Shown: positions 31,088 through 40,659 of the stretch, piece after piece
How positions within the stretch are numbered: the first letter of the stretch is position 1
Layout of the letters: each line of letters opens with the position of its first letter
Source: Asaia bogorensis
Lineage (GTDB): Bacteria > Pseudomonadota > Gammaproteobacteria > Burkholderiales > Burkholderiaceae_C
Assembly: GCA_943371375.1 (NCBI GenBank)
Contig: CALRUM020000008.1
Span: 9,164-73,163, forward strand
Reading direction: 5' to 3'
DNA length: 64,000 nucleotides
Translations under genes and position numbers: made by a program
The notes under the pieces: generated by a model
Databases searched by the model: none
What the model was told of the DNA's origin: nothing
The model's input: the letters and a program-made list of their open reading frames with translations, nothing else

Positions 31088-33445
31088 ATGAGCAAGCGTT
31101 CAGGTGCGGATAAGCAGGGGCAGCTGCTGCTGTCGCCGGGCCTCAAAGAGGCGCCGGTGCTGGACCTGATGTGTTCGCATTTTGTCCTGACCCTGGCCGC
31201 CCGGCAGGGCGCCAAGTTCAATGTGCGGCGTGACCTCAACAGCCTGCTGTCGCTGTCGGGCCGGCACCTGGTGTGGCCCTTGCCCGCGCTGCAGCGCTTG
31301 CGCGAATTCCTGGGCCGGCGTTGCCGTGACAACGAATTCTGGCGCGGCCATGAAGCCCTCAGCGATACCGAGTTCATGAACCGCCATGGCGCCTGGCGCG
31401 GCCCTTACGAAGAAGGCACGCTGTTTTTTTACCTCGATGAACACGCCAAGGACCAGCCCAAAGACCTGTTGTCGGTGCTGGGCGCCACCGGCGAGTGGCT
31501 GACCCAGGCGCTGAAAAAGCAATCCACGCTGGTGGAGAAAAACATTGCCGCGCTGGCCAATTTGCTGCAGCTCAACCAGGCCGAACGTGCGCTGCTGCTG
31601 TACGGAACGCTGGCGCGTTACCAGCGCGACCTGCGCTCCCTGCTGGTCGAGTTCAAGGTCAACAATGCGCCCGAAGCCTATGCCGCGATTGCCGAAGTGG
31701 CCGGCGTCAAGGCCAGCGAGGTGGCCGAAGCCTTGCGCGCCGGCTCGCGGCTGGAGCGCATCGGCATGGTGGAAAACCTGATTTCCGAGCACAACATCAC
31801 CGACCTGGCCGACCTGATGAAAGTCAGCGAAAAACTGCCACCGGTGCTGATGCGCGAGTACCGCGACCAGAACGAGCTGATGGCGGTGTTCACCCGGCCG
31901 GTGGACCGCAGCAGCCTGGGGCTGGCCGATTTTGCCTTTGCCCGCGACGATGTGCAGGTGCTGGTGGCGCTGCTGCGTCATGCGGTGCAGGGCAAGGAGC
32001 TGGGTGTCAATGTGCTGCTCTACGGCCCACCGGGCACCGGCAAGACCGAGCTGGCCAAGGTGGTGGCCCAGGCCGCCGGGCTCGATCTGTTCGAGGTCGA
32101 ATACGCGGACCGTGACGGCAACTCCCTGAGCGGCAGGGACCGCTACCGCTCGCTGCAGATTGCCCAGGTCTTTCTCAAGGGCAGCGCCCATGCCGCCCTG
32201 CTGTTTGACGAGGTCGAAGACGTGTTTCCGGCGATTTCCAGCGAGGCCGCGCAACTGCTCGCGCGTTCTGAGCAAATGGCGGCGCCGGCCACCGGTTCCG
32301 TCAACGGCAAAGCCTGGGTCAACCAGATTCTCGAGTCGAACACCGTTCCCACGCTGTGGGTCACGAACCGCATCGAGCAGATCGACCCGGCCTTTCGCCG
32401 CCGTTTTGCCTACCACCTGGAGCTCCAGTCCCCGCCGCCCGGCGCGCGTGAGGCGCTGGTGCGCAAGACACTCGAAGGGGTGCCGGTCAGCGAGGCCTTT
32501 CTCGCCAAACTGACCGGGCGCAAGGGCCTGACCCCGGCGCAGATTCGCACCGCAGTGCGTTTTGCCAAACTTGCCGGCAGTCCGGGCTTTGAGCCCGATG
32601 GCACGGACATGGCCGCCATGCTGCCGGGTGGCCAGGCCGCCTTGACCGAATCGCTGATTGAACGACAACTCAAAAACGCCGACCTGGCGTTGGGCAACAA
32701 GGCCGACGCCGCGGGGCGCCGCAGTGTCACCACCTACGACCTGGCCATGCTCAACGTTGAGTCGCGCTTTGAAGTCACACGCATCGTGGCGGCGCTCAAG
32801 GCCCGTGGCCATGGCACCCTGTGTTTTTACGGTGCGCCGGGCACCGGCAAGACGGCGCTGGCCGAGCACCTGGCCAAGGCGCTGGAGCGTCCGCTGCTGA
32901 TCAAGCAGGCGAGCGACCTGATGAGCAAATACGTGGGCGAAACCGAGCAGAACATGGCGGCGATGTTTGCCGAGGCCGAAGCCGAGAAAGCCGTGTTGCT
33001 GCTTGACGAGGCCGACAGCTTTTTGCAGGACAGGCGCGGCGCACAGCGCACCTACGAGGTGACCGAAGTCAATGAAATGTTGCAGGGCATGGAGCGTTTC
33101 AACGGCATTTTTGTCTGCACCACGAATCTGCTGGAAAGCCTGGACCAGGCGGCCTTGCGGCGCTTTACCTTCAAGATCAAGTTCATGCCCCTGACCGCCG
33201 TGCAACGGGAAAAAATGTTTGTCACTGAAGCGCTGGCCGGCAATGCCAGCCTGCTCGACGCCGGGCTGAGCCTGCGCCTGGCCAGGCTGGCGCAGCTGTG
33301 CCCTGGTGACTTTGCCGCAGTCAGGCGGCAGACCGACATCCTGGCGGTGGACTTCACGGCCGACGAGTTTTTAAGCCAGCTCGAAGCCGAGCACCGGATC
33401 AAGCCGGAAGTGCGGGAGGCACGGGGCATGGGGTTTATGCAGTAG
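31088..33445 (+). CDS. Tandem-AAA+ ATPase with uncharacterised N-terminal domain
   Basis: Two Walker A (GPPGTGKT, GAPGTGKT) and Walker B (LLFDEVED, LLLDEADS) motifs with IDPAFRRRF and LDQAALRRF arginine fingers. Confidence 0.88.
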   Translation: MSKRSGADKQGQLLLSPGLKEAPVLDLMCSHFVLTLAARQGAKFNVRRDLNSLLSLSGRHLVWPLPALQRLREFLGRRCRDNEFWRGHEALSDTEFMNRHGAWRGPYEEGTLFFYLDEHAKDQPKDLLSVLGATGEWLTQALKKQSTLVEKNIAALANLLQLNQAERALLLYGTLARYQRDLRSLLVEFKVNNAPEAYAAIAEVAGVKASEVAEALRAGSRLERIGMVENLISEHNITDLADLMKVSEKLPPVLMREYRDQNELMAVFTRPVDRSSLGLADFAFARDDVQVLVALLRHAVQGKELGVNVLLYGPPGTGKTELAKVVAQAAGLDLFEVEYADRDGNSLSGRDRYRSLQIAQVFLKGSAHAALLFDEVEDVFPAISSEAAQLLARSEQMAAPATGSVNGKAWVNQILESNTVPTLWVTNRIEQIDPAFRRRFAYHLELQSPPPGAREALVRKTLEGVPVSEAFLAKLTGRKGLTPAQIRTAVRFAKLAGSPGFEPDGTDMAAMLPGGQAALTESLIERQLKNADLALGNKADAAGRRSVTTYDLAMLNVESRFEVTRIVAALKARGHGTLCFYGAPGTGKTALAEHLAKALERPLLIKQASDLMSKYVGETEQNMAAMFAEAEAEKAVLLLDEADSFLQDRRGAQRTYEVTEVNEMLQGMERFNGIFVCTTNLLESLDQAALRRFTFKIKFMPLTAVQREKMFVTEALAGNASLLDAGLSLRLARLAQLCPGDFAAVRRQTDILAVDFTADEFLSQLEAEHRIKPEVREARGMGFMQ

Positions 33446-33451
33446 CCGTTT

Positions 33452-33478
33452 GTCATCCCGGACCTGATCCGGGATCCA
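33452..33478. repeat. Short GTCATCCCG-type palindromic repeat (REP/RPE-like)
   Basis: GTCATCCCGGACCTGATCCGGGATCCA with 8-bp stem ATCCCGGA/TCCGGGAT, just after the AAA stop codon. Confidence 0.6.
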
Positions 33479-33523
33479 TGTGTGCTGACTACTTTGCTCC
33501 ACTGTTTAGTGGTGCGCCTGCAA

Positions 33524-33944
33524 GCCGGGGGTTGCCCGGCGGCAAGTAACTTTCTTTTGCGTCGCCAAAAGAAAGTCACCAAAGAAAAGGCGACCCGATG
33601 GTCTGGGTCCCTCCGCTGCGCTACGGGCAACCTGCGGTGCTCGCCGAAAACGGGGTCTCGCTCGAACTCGCTGCGCTCAGACAATCGCTCGCCCTGATCC
33701 GTTTTCGGCTGCGCTCTTCGGCCCAGCCCGACGGGTGGGAGACCGAACGCGGGTGCGGGGAGCCTTGACGCGCTCCGCGCGTCAAGGCGTATTTCAGTTG
33801 GCCGCCATGTTTGCACGCGGGAGCAGCGCACGTGGCCAAATGAGGTCCCCCTCCATCGCCCAGCGGGGGCGAGGGAGGGGTTAGGGGTGGGAGTGGGGAG
33901 TTAGACCCTACTGCCCCGAGCAGACCTCAGGCGCAGCGTGATGC
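33524..33944. mobile_element. Composite non-coding repeat family B, copy 1 (non-autonomous element or structured RNA)
   Basis: Collinear with 39320-39749 over ~420 bp with long identical blocks and compensatory changes in stems; no transposase ORF. Confidence 0.75.
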
Positions 33945-33967
33945 TCCAAACGCTGGCCGGTCAACCC

Positions 33968-35728
33968 TCAGAGCTGAATCAGCCGGATCGCCTTGCGCGA
34001 ACCGTCGTTCATTTCCCTGGCCACCTGCATCATGCGGTCCAGACAGGCCGGTGCCTGCTCGGGGGCCAGGCGTACCGGCCCCGCCAGGTAGCCGATGGCG
34101 ATGTGGAACAGCAGCGGATCGGCATCCGGCAATTCAGAGGTGGTTCGCAGGCCGCTGGCCAGGATTTTGGTGGCCAGCCGGTTCACCGAATCGCTGCTCA
34201 TCGGCCCCTCCAGCAACAGCGCAAAGTGGCTGTCACCGACACGCGCCACGGTGTCGGTCGGCTTGGTCACGGCCAGTATGCGGGCGGCGGCCAGCACCAT
34301 GGCGCGGTCGCCAGTTTCGCGGCCATGTTTGAGCTGCAGGCTGGTCTGGTTGCTCAGGTCGATGATCATCAGAGCGCAGGGCTGCTGGTAACGTTCGGCG
34401 GTACTCAGCGCCTGGCGCAGCTTGCCCAGCAGCGGCCGGGTGGTGAGCAGACCGGTCAGCGGGTCGGTGGTGCGCAGGGTACTGGCCCGCGTGCTGGGCT
34501 CTTCACGCCGGGTGATGCGGCGCAGCAGACCGTAAAAAAGAATCGGCGCCTCGATGGCCGAGCCCAGAATCAGCGCGTTCTGGGTCAGAAAGCTGGAGGC
34601 GATCAGCCCGAAGTTGCGCAGCAAGGGGAACAGGGTGGCCAGGATAATCGGCAAAAACCCCAGCGCAATCCAGCGTGCGTGGCGGTCGCCTTCCACCAGC
34701 GAGACCCCGACCACCATCAGCAGCACCACCATGCCGGCGCTGACCAGGATGTTGATCAGCGCAAAACTCTCGGGCGTCGGAAAGGCGGCATCGAGCAGGC
34801 CGACCAGCGGCGCAAGCCACATCAATGCCAGGATCAGCCAGTCCAGTGCCCGGAAAAAACGCCCCGGCGTGGTCACGGTGCGCACAAACCACAGCGCAGC
34901 AGCCGCGGCCAGCAGCGGCAGCAGCACAATCGCCATGTTGTTGAGCTGCGGCAGCTCCGGCCACAGGTACAGGCCGGCGATACCCTTGAAGGCGGCCTGG
35001 GAGCCGGCAAAGGTGCCGAGGTAGACCGCGTAACTTGCAAAACCACGGTCGCGGTAGGCCACTGCATTGAGCAGCGCGAGAACCGTCACCAGCAGCGCCA
35101 GCCCGAAATAGGCACCGAGGAACAGGTGTTCCAGCTGGCGCGAGGTCGTCACCCCCTCGGCGCTGAGCACCCTCGGCAGGGCTGAAAAAGGAACACGCGC
35201 ATGCTCCACCCGCAGGTAATAACGAACGCTGGCCCCGGCCTCATGGCTCAGGGAAAAAATCGGGTAACGCGCAGGCTGGGGCCAAACGCTGATGGGCAGG
35301 CTGTCACCGGCTTGCTGTACCACCCAGCGGCCCAGGCTGTCCCGGTAATAAAGCGCGATTTTGTCCACGCCGGACATCGGCAGTTCAAGTTTCCAGTGAA
35401 CTCCGGGGTCCTGCACCGTCGCGTCAAAACGCAGCCAGAGCGCCGCGTCGTCAAGCGGGTACTTTTTATCGGCGACAACGGCAGCAAAAGGCAGGCGCCC
35501 GGCATCGGCTTCAACCTTTTCCAAAGTAGTTTTGCCGCCCACATCGACCCAGAAATCCAGCGCCTGTGTCAGCGCCACCGGACCGTTGTCGCGGCTCAGG
35601 GTCAGTGAATCGCCGCCCCATGCGGGGCCAGCCAGCAGCAGCGCCGGTAAAAACACGAGGCCCGCAAGCGCCCGCACAGCGCGTGCCAGGGCGGCACGCC
35701 GGGGGGTGAGGGATGGGACGACGGACAC
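33968..35728 (-). CDS. 7TMR-DISM sensor protein with degenerate GGDEF domain
   Basis: Periplasmic 7TMR-DISMED2-like region, 7 TM helices, TDPLTGL, and VARVGDSHF in place of GG(D/E)EF; start is approximate. Confidence 0.85.
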   Translation of the reverse strand: MSVVPSLTPRRAALARAVRALAGLVFLPALLLAGPAWGGDSLTLSRDNGPVALTQALDFWVDVGGKTTLEKVEADAGRLPFAAVVADKKYPLDDAALWLRFDATVQDPGVHWKLELPMSGVDKIALYYRDSLGRWVVQQAGDSLPISVWPQPARYPIFSLSHEAGASVRYYLRVEHARVPFSALPRVLSAEGVTTSRQLEHLFLGAYFGLALLVTVLALLNAVAYRDRGFASYAVYLGTFAGSQAAFKGIAGLYLWPELPQLNNMAIVLLPLLAAAAALWFVRTVTTPGRFFRALDWLILALMWLAPLVGLLDAAFPTPESFALINILVSAGMVVLLMVVGVSLVEGDRHARWIALGFLPIILATLFPLLRNFGLIASSFLTQNALILGSAIEAPILFYGLLRRITRREEPSTRASTLRTTDPLTGLLTTRPLLGKLRQALSTAERYQQPCALMIIDLSNQTSLQLKHGRETGDRAMVLAAARILAVTKPTDTVARVGDSHFALLLEGPMSSDSVNRLATKILASGLRTTSELPDADPLLFHIAIGYLAGPVRLAPEQAPACLDRMMQVAREMNDGSRKAIRLIQL

Positions 35729-38214: not shown

Positions 38215-39261
38215 ATGAAGCAAGCCATCTACACCCGCGGAGCCGCGCTCCCTGCCGTACTTGAACAACGCATCGCCATTCTTGACGGCGCCATGGGCAC
38301 CATGATCCAGCGCTTCAAACTCAATGAAGCGCAGTACCGCGGCGAACGTTTCAGGGACTTCCACAAGGACGTCAAGGGCAACAACGAGTTGCTGAGCCTG
38401 ACACGGCCCGACGTGATCCAGGACATCCACGAAGGCTATCTGGCCGCTGGCGCCGACATGATAGAGACCAACACCTTCGGCGCCACCACCGTGGCCCAGG
38501 CCGACTACGACATGGCCGAGCTCGCGGTCGAAATGAATTACGAGTCCGCCCGCATAGCGCGCGCCGCCTGCGACAAGTTTTCCACACCCGACAAGCCGCG
38601 TTTTGTCGTTGGCGCCCTGGGCCCCACACCCAAAACCGCCAGCATCAGCCCCGACGTCAACGACCCCGGCGCGCGCAACACCAGCTTTGAAGAGCTGCGC
38701 AAGGCCTATTACGAGCAGACCGAAGCCCTGGTCAAGGGCGGCGCCGACGTGTTGCTGGTCGAGACGATTTTCGACACGCTCAACGCCAAGGCCGCGCTGT
38801 TTGCGATTGACGAGTACTTCGACAACAGCGGCGAGCGCCTGCCGCTGATCATCAGCGGCACGGTCACCGACGCCTCGGGCCGTATCCTGAGCGGCCAGAC
38901 CGTCACGGCGTTCTGGCACAGCATCCGCCATGCCCAGCCGCTGGCCGTGGGCCTGAACTGCGCACTCGGCGCGACGTTGATGCGCCCCTACATCCAGGAG
39001 CTGGCGCGGGTGGCGGGTGACACCTTCATCAGCTGTTATCCGAACGCCGGTTTGCCCAACCCCATGAGCGACACCGGCTTTGACGAAACGCCGGACGTGA
39101 CCTCGCGCCTGCTGCGCGAGTTTGCCGCCGAAGGGCTGGTGAATATCGTCGGCGGTTGCTGCGGGACGACGCCGGAGCATATTGGGGCGATTCATGAGGC
39201 CGTCAAACCGCTGGCGCCGCGCGGGATTCAACGCGGGTTTTTCTACAAGGAAGCGGCCTGA
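38215..39261 (+). CDS. metH: Methionine synthase, stand-alone homocysteine-binding (N-terminal) domain
   Basis: [41 protein letters not shown]; ends after ~348 aa with no folate or cobalamin domains. Confidence 0.88.
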
Positions 39262-39319
39262 ATAGCTGACGGGTCTCAGCAGAGCCAGTTTGATTCAACC
39301 GGCAGTGGGTTGCCAGCTG

Positions 39320-39749
39320 GCCGGGTCTCGCCCCGGCGGGCGACTCACTTTCTCTTGCGTCGCCAAGAGAAAGTAAGCAAAGAGAAGGCGACCCGATGGT
39401 CAGGGTCCTTCCGCTTTGCTCCAGGCAACCTGCGGTGCTCGCCGTTAACGGGGGCTAGCTCGAACTCGCCTTCGGCTCAGACAATCGCTCGCCCTGATCC
39501 GTTTTCGGCTGCGCTCCTCGGCCCAGCCCGACGGGTGGGGGAAACAAATGCGGGTTCGGATGCGGGGAGACGATGACGCGGAGAGCGCGTCATCGTCGGA
39601 CTACGCGGCGGTCATGTTTGCACGCGGGGGCAGCACACGCGGCCAAATGAGGTCCCCCTCCATCGCCCAGCGGGGCGAGGGAGGGGTTAGGGGTGGGAGT
39701 GGGGAGTTAGTCCTACTGTCTAACGCAAGCCCGAGACGCAGCGTGATGC
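39320..39749. mobile_element. Composite non-coding repeat family B, copy 2
   Basis: Same orientation and module order as 33524-33944; also lies between convergent genes. Confidence 0.75.
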
Positions 39750-39759
39750 CGGCAACACC

Positions 39760-40659
39760 TCAGCTCAGCACCACACTGCTCAAGCGCCGCCGGTAAGTCG
39801 CCACCACCGGATCATCCGGCGGAATCTGGCCGTCGGCGACCTTGACCCGGGGCGGCTCGATGATTTCCAGGATGGACACAAAGGTCTTGCGTGCCAGTTC
39901 CCCGTTCCAGGATTTGTCGCGCATCAGGATTTCCAGCAACTCGTCCATCGCCGCCACCCACTGCTGCTGGCTCATGTGCAGTTGTGCCAGCGCGTAACGT
40001 GTGTCGAAGTCCCGCTTGTTGCCTGCAAGTTTTGCATCGAATCCGGCTTTGGCCAGCGCCGCATCTGCGTGAGCAGCTCCTGATTCAATAGCGTTGAGCC
40101 AGTGTTGCAGGGCCTCCAGCTTGCGCACCACCGGCGCTTTGCTGGCTACGGGCGCAAAAGCGGTTTTGGCGTGTTCGACCTGGCCGTGCTGCAGCAGCAG
40201 GCGGATGTAATCGAAGCGTGCGTTGTCGTTGGCCGGGTCGGTGGCAACGGCTGCCTGCAGTTTTTCCAGCACCGCTGCCGGGCTGCTGTCTTCCGGCTCC
40301 GCCATTTCTTCTTCGGCCGGTGGCAACTCTTCGGCCGGCGGCAGGTGTTTGTCGAGAAACTCCTTGACCTTGCCTTCGGGCAGCGCGCCCTGAAAACCGT
40401 CCACCGGCTGGCCGTTGACCATCAGTATGCAGGTCGGAATGCTGCGAATGCCAAAGGCGGCGCCCAGTTGCTGCTCCTGGTCGGAGTCGATCTTGACCAG
40501 CTTGAAGCGTCCGCCGTAGGCGATTTCCACTTTCTCCAGGATGGGCCCCAGAGATTTGCAGGGTCCGCACCAGGGCGCCCAGAAATCAATCAGCACGGGG
40601 GTGGTCATGGAAGCCGCAATGACTTCCTCCTCAAAATTGGCAATGGTGGCGTCGATCAT
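39760..40659 (-). CDS. ybbN: Thioredoxin/TPR co-chaperone YbbN (CnoX)
   Basis: DFWAPWCGPCK, FGIRSIP, C-terminal TPR ELLEILMRDKSWN...YRRRLSS. Confidence 0.9.
   Translation of the reverse strand: MIDATIANFEEEVIAASMTTPVLIDFWAPWCGPCKSLGPILEKVEIAYGGRFKLVKIDSDQEQQLGAAFGIRSIPTCILMVNGQPVDGFQGALPEGKVKEFLDKHLPPAEELPPAEEEMAEPEDSSPAAVLEKLQAAVATDPANDNARFDYIRLLLQHGQVEHAKTAFAPVASKAPVVRKLEALQHWLNAIESGAAHADAALAKAGFDAKLAGNKRDFDTRYALAQLHMSQQQWVAAMDELLEILMRDKSWNGELARKTFVSILEIIEPPRVKVADGQIPPDDPVVATYRRRLSSVVLS
40036..40092 (-). repeat. Family A repeat-derived segment embedded in frame in ybbN
   Basis: Minus strand reads GCTATTGAATCAGGAGC-TGCTCACGCAGATGCGGCGCTGGCCAAAGCCGGATTCGAT, encoding AIESGAAHADAALAKAGFD. Confidence 0.65.

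What the first reader, a model, noticed from the sequence alone, without database searches (positions are those of the whole stretch)
33549..33594. Telomerase-like pseudoknot with an 8-base-triple helix, supported by three-way covariation between two copies
Plus strand copy 1: TTTCTTTT(33551-58) GC GTCGCC AAAAGAAA(33567-74) GTCACC AAAGAAAA(33581-88) GGCGAC. Copy 2: TTTCTCTT(39349-56) GC GTCGCC AAGAGAAA(39365-72) GTAAGC AAAGAGAA(39379-86) GGCGAC. Segments 2 and 3 are exact mirror repeats, and one substitution appears coordinately in all three segments. On the minus strand this gives an H-type pseudoknot: S1 = GUCGCC/GGCGAC and S2 = pyrimidine/purine tracts. The pyrimidine loop L1 lies parallel to the S2 purine strand, so a U.A-U triple in copy 1 becomes C.G-C in copy 2. 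This matches the topology of the telomerase RNA pseudoknot triplex (established). In both copies it would sit at the 3' end of a minus-strand transcript, where it could block exonucleases (inference). A role in ssDNA, as a nuclease or transposase recognition structure, is equally possible.
Basis: partly seen in the sequence, partly recalled or inferred. Interest (0 to 1): 0.82.

Follow-up and report, generated by a model that had tools for sequence, protein, structure and literature searches.

The report
Triple-helix pseudoknot in a bacterial repeat
The flagged 44 bases are one copy of a module found about 50 times in this genome and in many related bacteria; sequence comparison strongly indicates that one strand folds into a knotted hairpin with an eight-layer triple helix, a triplex-capable repeat of a kind known in bacteria since 2000 but not described in this form.

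Summary
Both copies (33551-33594, 39349-39392) are the end module of a ~400-nt dispersed intergenic repeat. This 3.95-Mb Burkholderiales genome holds 51 exact motif copies. The motif occurs in about 20% of sampled genomes of the same family.

Comparison of 84-109 non-redundant copies supports all three parts of the proposed fold:
- **Hairpin and third strand:** they co-vary three-way at 5 of 8 positions (666/672 cells mirror-identical).
- **S1:** 5 bp, with compensatory changes in five lineages.
- **Strand:** wobble pairs appear only on the minus strand (107 versus 4), which identifies the folded strand.

- The 6-nt "loop" between the purine tracts is paired, so S2 is 14 bp.
- The 8-nt third strand joins S2 directly, and L3 is 3 nt.

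It is not categorically new. Potential intrastrand triplex repeats (PIT/BoxC, TMECO) are published. I found this A/T-rich pseudoknotted family neither in Rfam nor in the papers searched.

RNA versus single-stranded DNA, and the function, remain open.

The parts
33589..33594 (-). S1 5' strand on the minus strand (GUCGCC). The inner five nt (33589-33593) pair with 33562-33566; the outer G (33594) is usually unpaired in the family.
   Evidence: Compensatory changes at 4 of 6 S1 pairs; outer pair broken in 13/55 rows
33581..33588 (-). Third (Hoogsteen) strand UUUUCUUU, which is the whole of L1. It lies parallel to the purine strand at 33551-33558.
   Evidence: Mirror of seg2 in 666/672 cells; both-side changes at 5 of 8 positions
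33575..33580 (-). 5' strand of the 6-bp extension of S2 (GGUGAC).
   Evidence: Covaries with 33545-33550 (GC/CG/AU, UA/CG/GC/AU...), with G.U on the minus strand only
33567..33574 (-). Watson-Crick pyrimidine strand of the triplex part of S2 (UUUCUUUU)
33559..33566 (-). Hairpin loop GGCGACGC. GGCGA (33562-33566) is the S1 3' strand; C33561 plus GC (33559-33560) form the 3-nt L3.
   Evidence: geometry estimate
33551..33558 (-). Purine strand AAAAGAAA, the centre of the eight base triples
33545..33550 (-). 3' strand of the 6-bp extension of S2 (GUUACU)
39343..39392 (-). Copy 2 of the whole module, type B. Pre 39343-48, purine strand 39349-56, loop 39357-64, pyrimidine strand 39365-72, extension 39373-78, third strand 39379-86, S1 39387-92.
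33524..33546 (.). Two overlapping G+C hairpins next to the module (GCCGGG..CCCGGC and TTGCC..GGCAA). Both covary between subfamilies.
   Evidence: Read from the alignments
33451..33480 (.). Outer REP-like hairpin TGTCATCCCGGA..TCCGGGATCCATG. It precedes about half of the copies and forms the outer ends of inverted doublets.
   Evidence: (58 copies)
33509..33944 (.). The ~400-nt dispersed repeat, copy 1, between the convergent AAA+ ATPase gene (stop at 33445) and the 7TMR-DISM/GGDEF gene (stop at 33968)
39307..39749 (.). The ~400-nt repeat, copy 2, between the convergent homocysteine S-methyltransferase gene (stop at 39261) and the thioredoxin-TPR gene (stop at 39760). The site is empty in one genome of the same genus.
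33848..33898 (+). Second, G-rich potential intrastrand triplex in the same element (CCCCTCCATCGCCC AGC GGGGGCGAGGGAGGGG TTA GGGGTGGGAGTGGGG). It resembles BoxC/TMECO. The copy-2 equivalent is at 39655-39704.
   Evidence: compared with the pattern published in PMC4666352

Best explanation
**What it is.** The 50-nt module (33545-33594, read on the minus strand) is a single-strand fold kept by selection. It is an H-type pseudoknot with these parts:
- S1: a 5-bp G+C helix (UCGCC/GGCGA).
- L1: an 8-nt pyrimidine stretch that leaves S1 directly and lies in the major groove of S2, parallel to the purine strand. It gives eight U.A-U / C+.G-C base triples.
- S2: a 14-bp hairpin. Beyond the triplex it continues for exactly 6 bp.
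- L3: 3 nt.

Six base pairs is about the distance at which the 5' end of the pyrimidine strand comes back across the deep groove of an A-form helix. That would let L1 join S2 with no spacer.

In the published classification of intrastrand triplexes this is a class IV (Hoogsteen-pyrimidine-purine) motif.

**Where it sits.** The module is the end piece of a mosaic, non-coding, mobile intergenic repeat. It occurs as single arms of 200-400 nt and as tail-to-tail doublets of about 450-650 nt. Copies lie mostly between convergent genes.

**What is shown.** The fold, its strand, and the multiplicity and mobility of the element.

**What is inferred.** The fold most likely acts in RNA (about 45%, against about 35% for single-stranded DNA). 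Transcripts that read from the body of the element towards the module would carry a compact knot that is hard to unwind, because the purine 3' strand is clamped in a triple helix. That knot would hinder 3'-to-5' exonucleases or helicases, as REP hairpins and ENE/MALAT1-type triple helices do.
For: - **Three-way covariation.** Columns 49/66/79 read C-G-G in 63 copies and T-A-A in 20. Columns 50/65/80 and 51/64/81 switch in 15-16 copies, and columns 52/63/82 and 53/62/83 switch in 1-4 copies. At least 7 triple types occur in other genera.
- **Concerted length changes.** Forms 7+6+7 and 9+6+9 exist, and the 6-nt linker is fixed.
- **S2 extension.** It covaries: GC 55 / CG 25; UA 55 / CG 12 / GC 7 / AU 6.
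- **S1.** It covaries in five lineages.
- **Minus strand.** 97.2% of cells are standard pairs on the minus strand, against 91.8% on the plus strand. Wobble cells are 107 versus 4. The minus-strand hairpin is about 4 kcal/mol more stable, in 93/97 copies.
- **Independent switches.** On a tree of the flanking sequence the triple type changes at least 33 times among 109 copies.
- **Local fold, not arm-to-arm pairing.** The two arms of a doublet share a type in only 5 of 22 pairs.
- **Geometry.** The A-form cross-groove P-P minimum is 10 A at a 6-bp offset. Across the minor groove, 5 bp needs about 22 A (reachable with 3 nt) and 6 bp needs about 26 A.
- **Mobility.** The orthologous site is empty in one genome of the same genus and holds a different subtype in another.
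- **Literature.** Pyrimidine-motif intrastrand triplexes form in RNA; purine-motif ones do not (cited in PMC4666352).
Against: - No direct evidence of transcription.
- No orientation preference relative to neighbouring genes where it can be judged. In tandem-gene gaps the counts are 4 versus 2 in this genome and 19 versus 12 elsewhere; after I set aside inverted pairs by hand, 13 versus 6, if anything the wrong way for an mRNA-sense element.
- The same element carries a G-rich module that fits a purine-motif triplex, which forms in DNA only, on the other strand.
- G.T wobble is also tolerated in folded single-stranded DNA.
- Steric feasibility rests on ideal A-form numbers recalled from memory, not on a model.
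- The C+.G-C layers need protonation.
- The loci were gathered with patterns that fixed parts of the motif, and alignment A4 was deliberately enriched for S1 variants.
Confidence: 0.55

Rival explanations
1. The same minus-strand fold forms in single-stranded DNA (T.A-T / C+.G-C, class IV intrastrand triplex). It would serve the element itself, as a structure recognised or exploited during mobilisation or recombination. Alternatively it would act as a replication or recombination obstacle that makes the locus unstable, as proposed for TMECO/PIT repeats.
For: - The module belongs to a mobile, multi-copy element with presence/absence polymorphism and subtype exchange at one site.
- It sits at the outer ends of inverted doublets.
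- Subtypes propagate as families with all three strands matched, which suggests selection at the level of element propagation.
- Orientation is not biased relative to transcription.
- A DNA-type G-rich triplex module lies in the same element.
- The published TMECO repeat forms a DNA triplex in vitro and marks rearranged loci (PMC4666352).
Against: - No partner enzyme was found. There is no TnpB in the genome.
- The single Y1 transposase-like gene is not flanked by this repeat, and its presence does not track the motif: 20/24 motif-positive against 66/97 motif-negative genomes by my tally.
- No protein gene recurs next to the element in 113 loci.
- Orientation is not biased relative to GC skew (27:20), unlike IS200/IS605-type single-strand transposons.
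- The conserved G.U closing pair and the zero-spacer deep-groove crossing fit A-form RNA better.
Confidence: 0.3
2. A plus-strand purine-motif DNA triplex (class II: pyrimidine, purine, reverse-Hoogsteen purine; A.A-T and G.G-C). This is how BoxC/TMECO is interpreted.
For: Mirror symmetry of two purine tracts plus a complementary pyrimidine tract fits this motif equally well in principle. The block order on the plus strand is the same as in TMECO.
Against: - Wobble asymmetry points to the other strand (107 versus 4; 93/97).
- With the linker paired, the plus-strand third strand would have to enter the major groove from the wrong side of a classical pseudoknot, where L3 crosses the minor groove (my reasoning from established pseudoknot topology).
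- A.A-T-rich purine triplexes are weak (own knowledge).
Confidence: 0.07
3. There is no triple helix. The mirror tract would reflect something else: a slipped alternative hairpin between segment 1 and segment 3, a direct repeat, or protein-binding half-sites.
For: Because the G sits near the middle of an A-tract, segments 2 and 3 are also 68-77% identical when read as direct repeats. A 1-nt slipped seg1:seg3 pairing of 7 bp is possible for the common types.
Against: - The in-register mirror fits 99% of cells. Shifted or direct registers fit 48-77%.
- Types such as AAGAAAAA/AAAAAGAA and AGAAGAAA/AAAGAAGA allow only 5-6 nt of slipped pairing, at other shifts (my reading).
- The length changes are symmetric.
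- A mirror repeat is not a symmetry that duplex-binding proteins read.
Confidence: 0.05
4. A ligand-sensing pseudoknot of the SAM-II / SAM-V / preQ1-II kind, which are H-type pseudoknots with an L1-S2 major-groove triplex.
For: Same topology class (PMC3303485, PMC6061858, PMC11625349, listed).
Against: - Fifty copies per genome.
- The sites lie at gene ends, mostly between convergent genes, not in 5' leaders.
- No Rfam match even at E = 10.
- There is no conserved unpaired pocket: all L1 positions take part in regular triples.
Confidence: 0.03

Closest known systems
Potential intrastrand triplex (PIT) elements / BoxC / TMECO repeats and the ITxF classes I-IV (Hoyne et al. 2000 and 2002, as cited in Holder et al. 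2015; Holder et al. 2015, NAR, PMC4666352)
   Same: Dispersed, multi-copy, intergenic bacterial repeats. Three consecutive blocks on one strand (pyrimidine, purine, mirror purine) can fold into an intrastrand triple helix. Function is unknown, and there is no correlation with gene orientation. The 400-nt element here also carries a G-rich block of that very architecture, with the TTA second loop of TMECO type A.
   Different: - This module is A/T-rich.
- The strict TMECO pattern has 0 hits in this genome.
- The folded strand is the pyrimidine-motif (class IV) strand.
- The second 'loop' is in fact a 6-bp helix.
- The loop pairs with the 5' flank to make a pseudoknot.
- The evidence here is evolutionary (three-way covariation). 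For TMECO the evidence is biophysical.
Telomerase RNA pseudoknot; SAM-II, SAM-V and preQ1-II riboswitch pseudoknots
   Same: An H-type pseudoknot in which pyrimidine-rich L1 lies in the major groove of S2 and forms U.A-U (Hoogsteen) triples next to the helical junction.
   Different: - Eight consecutive triples here, against about 3-5 (own knowledge).
- No A-rich L3 in the S1 minor groove; L3 is 3 nt.
- S2 is extended by 6 bp.
- No template or reverse transcriptase, and no ligand pocket.
- Multi-copy mobile element rather than a single-copy gene or leader.
ENE / MALAT1 / PAN triple helices, including ENEs of plant and fungal transposons (reviews PMC7583470 and PMC13541005)
   Same: Two U-rich strands clamp an A-rich strand in a long U.A-U helix with occasional C+.G-C. 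These helices protect RNA from 3' decay and occur in transposable-element transcripts.
   Different: There the A-rich strand is the 3' poly(A) or a genomically encoded tail, and the U-rich strands form an internal loop. Here all three strands are internal and locked by a pseudoknot. The 2026 review lists only riboswitches and a group II intron for prokaryotes.
REP / BIME / REPIN and MITE-type bacterial repeats (own knowledge; REP-RAYT link in PMC4690160)
   Same: Non-coding and multi-copy, at gene ends and between convergent genes. Mosaic of modules, inverted doublets, and presence/absence between relatives.
   Different: No GTAG-type REP head and no link to a RAYT gene. Terminal repeats and target duplications were not defined. 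The module is a pseudoknotted triplex, not a simple palindrome.

Membership tests
H-type pseudoknot with L1-S2 major-groove triplex (telomerase-like topology) | Two helices in crossing (S1a-L1-S2a-S1b-L3-S2b) order, each supported as a helix | tested here: met
   S2: 10 of 14 pairs change on both sides. S1: 4 of 6 pairs change on both sides. 97.2% of cells are paired on the minus strand (variants found).
H-type pseudoknot with L1-S2 major-groove triplex (telomerase-like topology) | L1 pyrimidines parallel to the S2 purine strand, with identities that keep U.A-U / C.G-C | tested here: met
   666/672 mirror-identical cells; both-side changes at 5 of 8 layers; 0/500 shuffles reach the score
H-type pseudoknot with L1-S2 major-groove triplex (telomerase-like topology) | Physical formation of Hoogsteen triples | not testable with these tools
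   Needs melting, NMR or chemical probing
Telomerase RNA | A-rich L3 in the S1 minor groove; template region; partner reverse transcriptase | tested here: not met
   L3 is 3 nt ((C/A)GC). No protein gene recurs next to the element. It resembles telomerase RNA in one structural respect only and is not a member.
Intrastrand triplex repeats (PIT / ITxF classes) | Three consecutive homopurine/homopyrimidine blocks on one strand with hairpin plus mirror symmetry, stems of 6-15 nt | tested here: met
   8 (7-9)-nt blocks. Class II on the plus strand, class IV on the minus strand by the definitions quoted.
Intrastrand triplex repeats (PIT / ITxF classes) | ITxF search criterion: loops of 1-6 nt | tested here: not met
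   The first loop is 8 nt (GCGTCGCC) in 147+ copies. That search as described would miss it.
TMECO / BoxC | Pattern CCCTCNCCC N3-6 GGGNGAGGG N3 GGGNGAGGG | tested here: not met
   0 strict hits in the genome. The A/T module is unrelated in sequence. A looser G-rich relative occurs 24 times, in the same element.
REP / REPIN with RAYT | Repeat flanks, and co-occurs with, a Y1 (RAYT) transposase gene | tested here: not met
   The single Y1_Tnp gene (L114) is not flanked by the repeat. By my tally, 20/24 motif-positive and 66/97 motif-negative genomes have Y1_Tnp.
IS200/IS605-derived elements (PATE / omega-RNA) | TnpB or TnpA in the genome; insertion orientation tied to the replication direction | tested here: not met
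   No PF07282 match. Orientation versus GC skew is 27:20.
Any Rfam 15 family | Covariance-model match | tested here: not met
   No hit at gathering score in the window. Only a chance hit (E = 2.6) at E <= 10 in 33380-34020.
MITE | Multi-copy and non-coding, with presence/absence between relatives | tested here: met
MITE | Defined terminal inverted repeats with a target-site duplication and a cognate transposase | tested here: inconclusive
   Doublets end in TGTCATCCCGG...CCGGGATGACA. No duplication was seen at that copy and no transposase was identified.

The most novel reading that the evidence does not exclude
The module would be a previously undescribed, widespread bacterial RNA domain. It would be the longest natural major-groove triple helix known in bacteria (8, range 7-9, U.A-U / C+.G-C layers), locked in a pseudoknot whose dimensions (5-bp S1, 3-nt L3, 6-bp S2 extension, zero-spacer L1) fit A-form geometry. 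It would be carried by a mobile repeat that in doublet form works in either transcription direction. Its role would be a decay- or helicase-resistant cap, or a docking site for a dedicated protein. It occurs in Burkholderiales, Nitrosomonadales, Methylococcales and Neisseriales.
Probability: 0.35. Interest if true: 0.8.

Novelty: new variant of a known kind. Interest (0 to 1): 0.62.

Why it matters
Triplex-capable repeats in bacteria have been known for 25 years, but only as "potential" structures with in-vitro support and no function. In this family, evolution itself indicates that the triple helix and the pseudoknot that locks it are under selection: Watson-Crick partners and the Hoogsteen partner change together, again and again, and only on one strand.

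- **A test object.** This gives a clean, short (about 52 nt) molecule for deciding whether such repeats act as RNA or as single-stranded DNA.
- **If RNA.** It would extend long U.A-U triple helices, so far a eukaryotic and viral theme, to bacterial mobile elements.
- **Annotation.** The repeat breaks assemblies and spawns spurious ORFs in many Burkholderiales genomes.

Tried and rejected
- **Known RNA family.** Rfam at gathering score and at E <= 10 gave nothing.
- **Omega-RNA / PATE of IS200/IS605.** No TnpB and no replication-strand bias.
- **REP with RAYT.** The single Y1 gene is unlinked and uncorrelated with the motif.
- **Autonomous partner element.** No protein gene recurs within 3 kb in 113 loci. 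The only large "family" is spurious ORFs across the repeat itself.
- **Intrinsic terminator.** The two consensus hits merely use the U-tracts of the module. No U-run follows the strong hairpin on either strand (my reading).
- **Own promoter.** None found.
- **Plus-strand purine triplex, slipped hairpin, direct repeat, H-DNA in duplex.** Rejected on wobble asymmetry and register tests. H-DNA would not need segment 1 or the paired linker.
- **Invariant S1 as a protein site only.** This was my reading until. It was dropped when loop variants with compensatory partners turned up.
- **Literature search for the sequence strings.** No paper holds them.
- **Phages and plasmids.** 2 viral contigs of 2.9 million, and only chromid-size "plasmid" records.
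- **Exact element ends and target duplication.** One empty-site comparison (L121 versus L115/L117) was not clean enough.
Full report
**1. Observation**

Segment 2 is the reverse complement of segment 1, and segment 3 is the mirror image of segment 2. The single difference between the copies sits at corresponding places in all three segments. The core pattern is expected 0.05 times by chance in the window and occurs twice.

The copies are not isolated motifs. They are the first about 50 nt of a ~400-nt repeat (33541-33944 and 39339-39749, 83-85% identical). Each copy fills the gap between two convergent genes:
- Copy 1 lies between an AAA+ ATPase gene and a 7TMR-DISM/GGDEF gene.
- Copy 2 lies between a homocysteine S-methyltransferase gene and a thioredoxin-TPR gene.

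**2. A large family**

The genome (3.95 Mb, 63% G+C, 32 contigs) holds 51 exact matches to the motif pattern, and none to the reversed control. Many copies lie at contig ends. Three subtypes occur in this genome:

| Subtype | Segment 1 | Segment 2 | Segment 3 |
|---|---|---|---|
| A | TTTCTTTT | AAAAGAAA | AAAGAAAA |
| B | TTTCTCTT | AAGAGAAA | AAAGAGAA |
| C | TTTTCTTT | AAAGAAAA | AAAAGAAA |

All three keep both symmetries.

They come from Acidovorax, Polaromonas, Ottowia, Rhodoferax, Thiobacillus, Gallionella, Nitrosomonadales, Dechloromonas/Azonexus, Vogesella, Methylomonas and Methylobacter. That scan added four more matched types:
- TTTCTTTC / GAAAGAAA / AAAGAAAG
- TTTTTCTT / AAGAAAAA / AAAAAGAA
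- TTTCTTCT / AGAAGAAA / AAAGAAGA
- TTTCCTTT / AAAGGAAA / AAAGGAAA

In even samples the motif occurs in 24 of 121 genomes of the family, at 1-26 copies each, so this genome is an outlier. It occurs in 3 of 301 genomes of the class. It is nearly absent from viral contigs and true plasmids.

**3. The triple**

I aligned 84 non-redundant copies (A2).
- The seg1:seg2 hairpin is Watson-Crick throughout.
- Seg2 and seg3 are identical when read as mirror images in 666 of 672 cells. Shifted registers give 48-59% and direct-repeat registers 68-77%.
- Five of the eight layers switch between T-A-A and C-G-G, in 20, 15-16, 16, 1-2 and 3-4 sequences.
- In the formal count of the parallel seg1/seg3 relation, no shuffle of 500 reaches the observed values.
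- Lengths change together: 7+6+7 in four copies and 9+6+9 in one, against 8+6+8 in 198.
- On a tree built from the flanking sequence only, the perfectly matched triple type changes at least 33 times among 109 copies. Recombination may inflate this number, but the signal is clearly not three inherited events.

A slipped seg1:seg3 hairpin or a direct repeat cannot explain the rarer types. A mirror repeat also means nothing to a duplex-binding protein. A triple helix is the economical reading.

**4. Which strand**

Reading the alignment, I saw that the 5-6 nt before seg1 co-vary, as Watson-Crick partners, with the 6-nt "linker" between seg2 and seg3. Examples are GATAC/GTATCC, GTTCC/GGAACC, CCTAC/GTAGGC, CCTTC/GAAGGC, GCATC/GATGCC and CCCTC/GAGGGG (counts). 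The hairpin is therefore 14 bp with an 8-nt loop.

- Its non-canonical cells are A.C on the plus strand 107 times and G.T 4 times. They are G.U wobbles on the minus strand only.
- The minus strand gives 97.2% standard pairs, against 91.8% for the plus strand.
- The minus-strand hairpin is about 4 kcal/mol more stable, in 93 of 97 copies.

The triplex is the pyrimidine motif (U.A-U, C+.G-C). According to the literature quoted in PMC4666352, this motif can form in RNA as well as DNA, whereas the purine motif cannot form in RNA.

**5. The pseudoknot**

In the first data set S1 (GTCGCC/GGCGAC) was invariant, because my patterns had fixed it. Only its outer pair varied, and without compensation.

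A family-wide scan that left the loop free found loop variants. I fetched their partners:

| Lineage | S1 5' side (plus strand) | S1 3' side (plus strand) |
|---|---|---|
| G413 | TGGCCC | GGGCCT |
| G570, G535 | TGGCTC | GAGCC(T/C) |
| G560 | GTGGCC | GGCCA(C/G) |
| G428 | (T/G)TGCCC | GGGCAC |
| G350 | TCCGCC | GGCGGC |

The inner five pairs are always Watson-Crick, and the sixth usually is not. Four of the six S1 columns show changes on both sides. That alignment was deliberately enriched for variants. S1 is therefore a real 5-bp helix and L3 is 3 nt.

**6. Does it fit in space?**

On the minus strand the order is S1a, third strand (8 nt), S2 5' strand (6+8 nt), S1b, L3 (3 nt), S2 3' strand (8+6 nt). 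The third strand runs from the junction down the deep groove of S2, parallel to the purine strand. After eight layers it must join the 5' end of the pyrimidine strand six base pairs further on, with no spacer.

I used ideal A-form phosphate coordinates, with values recalled from memory. The computed minimum reproduces the textbook rule that 1-2 nt can bridge 6-7 bp of deep groove.
- The cross-groove P-P distance is smallest (10 A) at an offset of 6 bp.
- Across the shallow groove, 5 bp needs about 22 A, which 3 nt can reach.
- 6 bp needs about 26 A, which 2 nt cannot reach. This matches the loss of the sixth S1 pair.

The fixed 6-bp extension, the 8-nt L1 and the 5-bp/3-nt S1/L3 thus look tuned to A-form geometry. 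This is an argument, not a model.

**7. The element**

Copies occur in three arrangements:
- single arms of about 200-250 or about 400 nt;
- tandem pairs;
- tail-to-tail doublets, which dominate in other genomes (spacing 350-600 nt in 22 of 27 neighbouring pairs), with the module at both outer ends.

The two arms of a doublet share a triple type in only 5 of 22 cases. Arm-to-arm complementarity is therefore not what is conserved.

About half of the copies are preceded by a REP-like hairpin (TGTCATCCCGGA..., 58 copies).

The 400-nt form also carries a G-rich block near its other end: CCCCTCCATCGCCC AGC GGGGGCGAGGGAGGGG TTA GGGGTGGGAGTGGGG (24 copies). It has the architecture of the published BoxC/TMECO triplex motif, although it misses the strict pattern.

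The element is mobile or exchangeable. The site of copy 2 is occupied in four genomes of the same genus besides this one and empty in a fifth. In one of the occupied genomes it holds subtype C where this genome has subtype B.

Insertions favour convergent gene pairs and avoid divergent ones. In this genome the counts are 19 convergent, 6 tandem and 1 divergent. Elsewhere they are 35, 31 and 2.

**8. What it does**

This part is inference.
- No orientation preference relative to flanking genes is seen where orientation is informative, and none relative to GC skew (27:20).
- There is no promoter.
- No neighbouring gene recurs, there is no TnpB, and there is no link to the Y1 transposase-like gene.

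I favour RNA (about 45%) for four reasons:
- the conserved G.U closing pair;
- the A-form-tuned dimensions;
- the RNA precedent for this exact topology;
- the position in regions reached by read-through from convergent genes.

A doublet would provide a correctly oriented module for either direction of transcription. The natural role would be a cap that is hard to unwind and that slows 3' exonucleases or helicases.

Single-stranded DNA (about 35%) remains a serious rival. The element is mobile. The G-rich partner module fits a DNA-only motif. The published relatives were studied as DNA and linked to genome instability (PMC4666352).

**9. Novelty**

Earlier notes of this scan pointed me to Hoyne/Maher and to Holder et al. 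I read the latter. The concept of dispersed bacterial repeats able to form intrastrand triplexes is established.

Four things I could not find, whether in that paper, in a 2026 review of RNA triple helices, in Rfam or by searching the sequence strings:
- this A/T-rich family;
- its pseudoknot;
- the strand assignment;
- covariation evidence for the third strand.

I rate it a new variant of a known kind.

Noticed in passing
window 33848-33898 and 39655-39704 (+): A G-rich potential intrastrand triplex of BoxC/TMECO architecture sits in the same 400-nt element. It has a pyrimidine block, then AGC, a purine block, TTA, and a near-mirror purine block. T stands in the third block where the duplex has A-T or an inverted C-G. 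There are 24 copies in the genome; the strict published TMECO pattern has 0 hits. Rfam's only weak hit (Antizyme_FSE, E = 2.6) falls on it.
   Followed up: partly
window 33451-33480: A REP-like hairpin TGTCATCCCGGAcctgaTCCGGGATCCATG starts 6 nt after the stop codon of the AAA+ ATPase gene. There are 58 copies in the genome. It precedes about half of the triplex modules and forms the outer ends of doublets. At the empty orthologous site in another genome (L121:1895-2010), two such hairpins face each other alone.
   Followed up: partly
window 33524-33546 and 39320-39346: Two overlapping G+C hairpins (GCCGGG..CCCGGC and TTGCC..GGCAA / CTCGCC..GGCGAG) lie directly beside the module. Both covary between subfamilies, and together they have the layout of a second small pseudoknot.
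   Followed up: no
L115:2002-2450 versus L117 (reverse) 997-1433: At the same chromosomal site, two genomes of the same genus carry the element with different triple subtypes: B here, C there, with loop GTCTCGCC. The body is 86% identical. This suggests module exchange or gene conversion between copies.
   Followed up: partly
L010:2963-4441, L029:1539-2881, L061:2954-4844: Three tail-to-tail pairs are 1.3-1.9 kb apart instead of about 0.5 kb. They enclose small ORFs (237, 254 and 222 aa) with no Pfam family, or only a weak DUF2971 hit. This is compatible with earlier notes that such doublets can hold cargo genes.
   Followed up: partly
L114 (G000:C5:104282-105004): The only Y1 (IS200-like/RAYT-like) transposase gene of the genome is single-copy, lies next to a glutamate synthase-like gene, and has a 9-bp hairpin (GATGCGCTG..CAGCGCATC) just before its start. 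It is not flanked by the repeats studied here.
   Followed up: partly
window 33643-33709 and 39441-39509: An 11-bp inverted repeat GCCGAAAACGG...CCGTTTTCGGC encloses a conserved ~45-nt stretch (..GAACTCGC..GCTCAGACAATCGCTCGCC..) in the body of the element. Blocks such as TGTYTGAGC, GCGAGTT and AGCANCGCAGG are conserved even in Methylococcales copies (alignment A3).
   Followed up: no
genome contigs C3, C9, C14, C16, C17, C19, C20, C23, C24, C25, C29, C31 (ends): Many contigs begin or end inside this repeat, often after about 126 nt, so the family is a main cause of the assembly breaks. The repeat also yields long spurious ORFs (for example window 33052-33831 on the minus strand, 259 aa).
   Followed up: no
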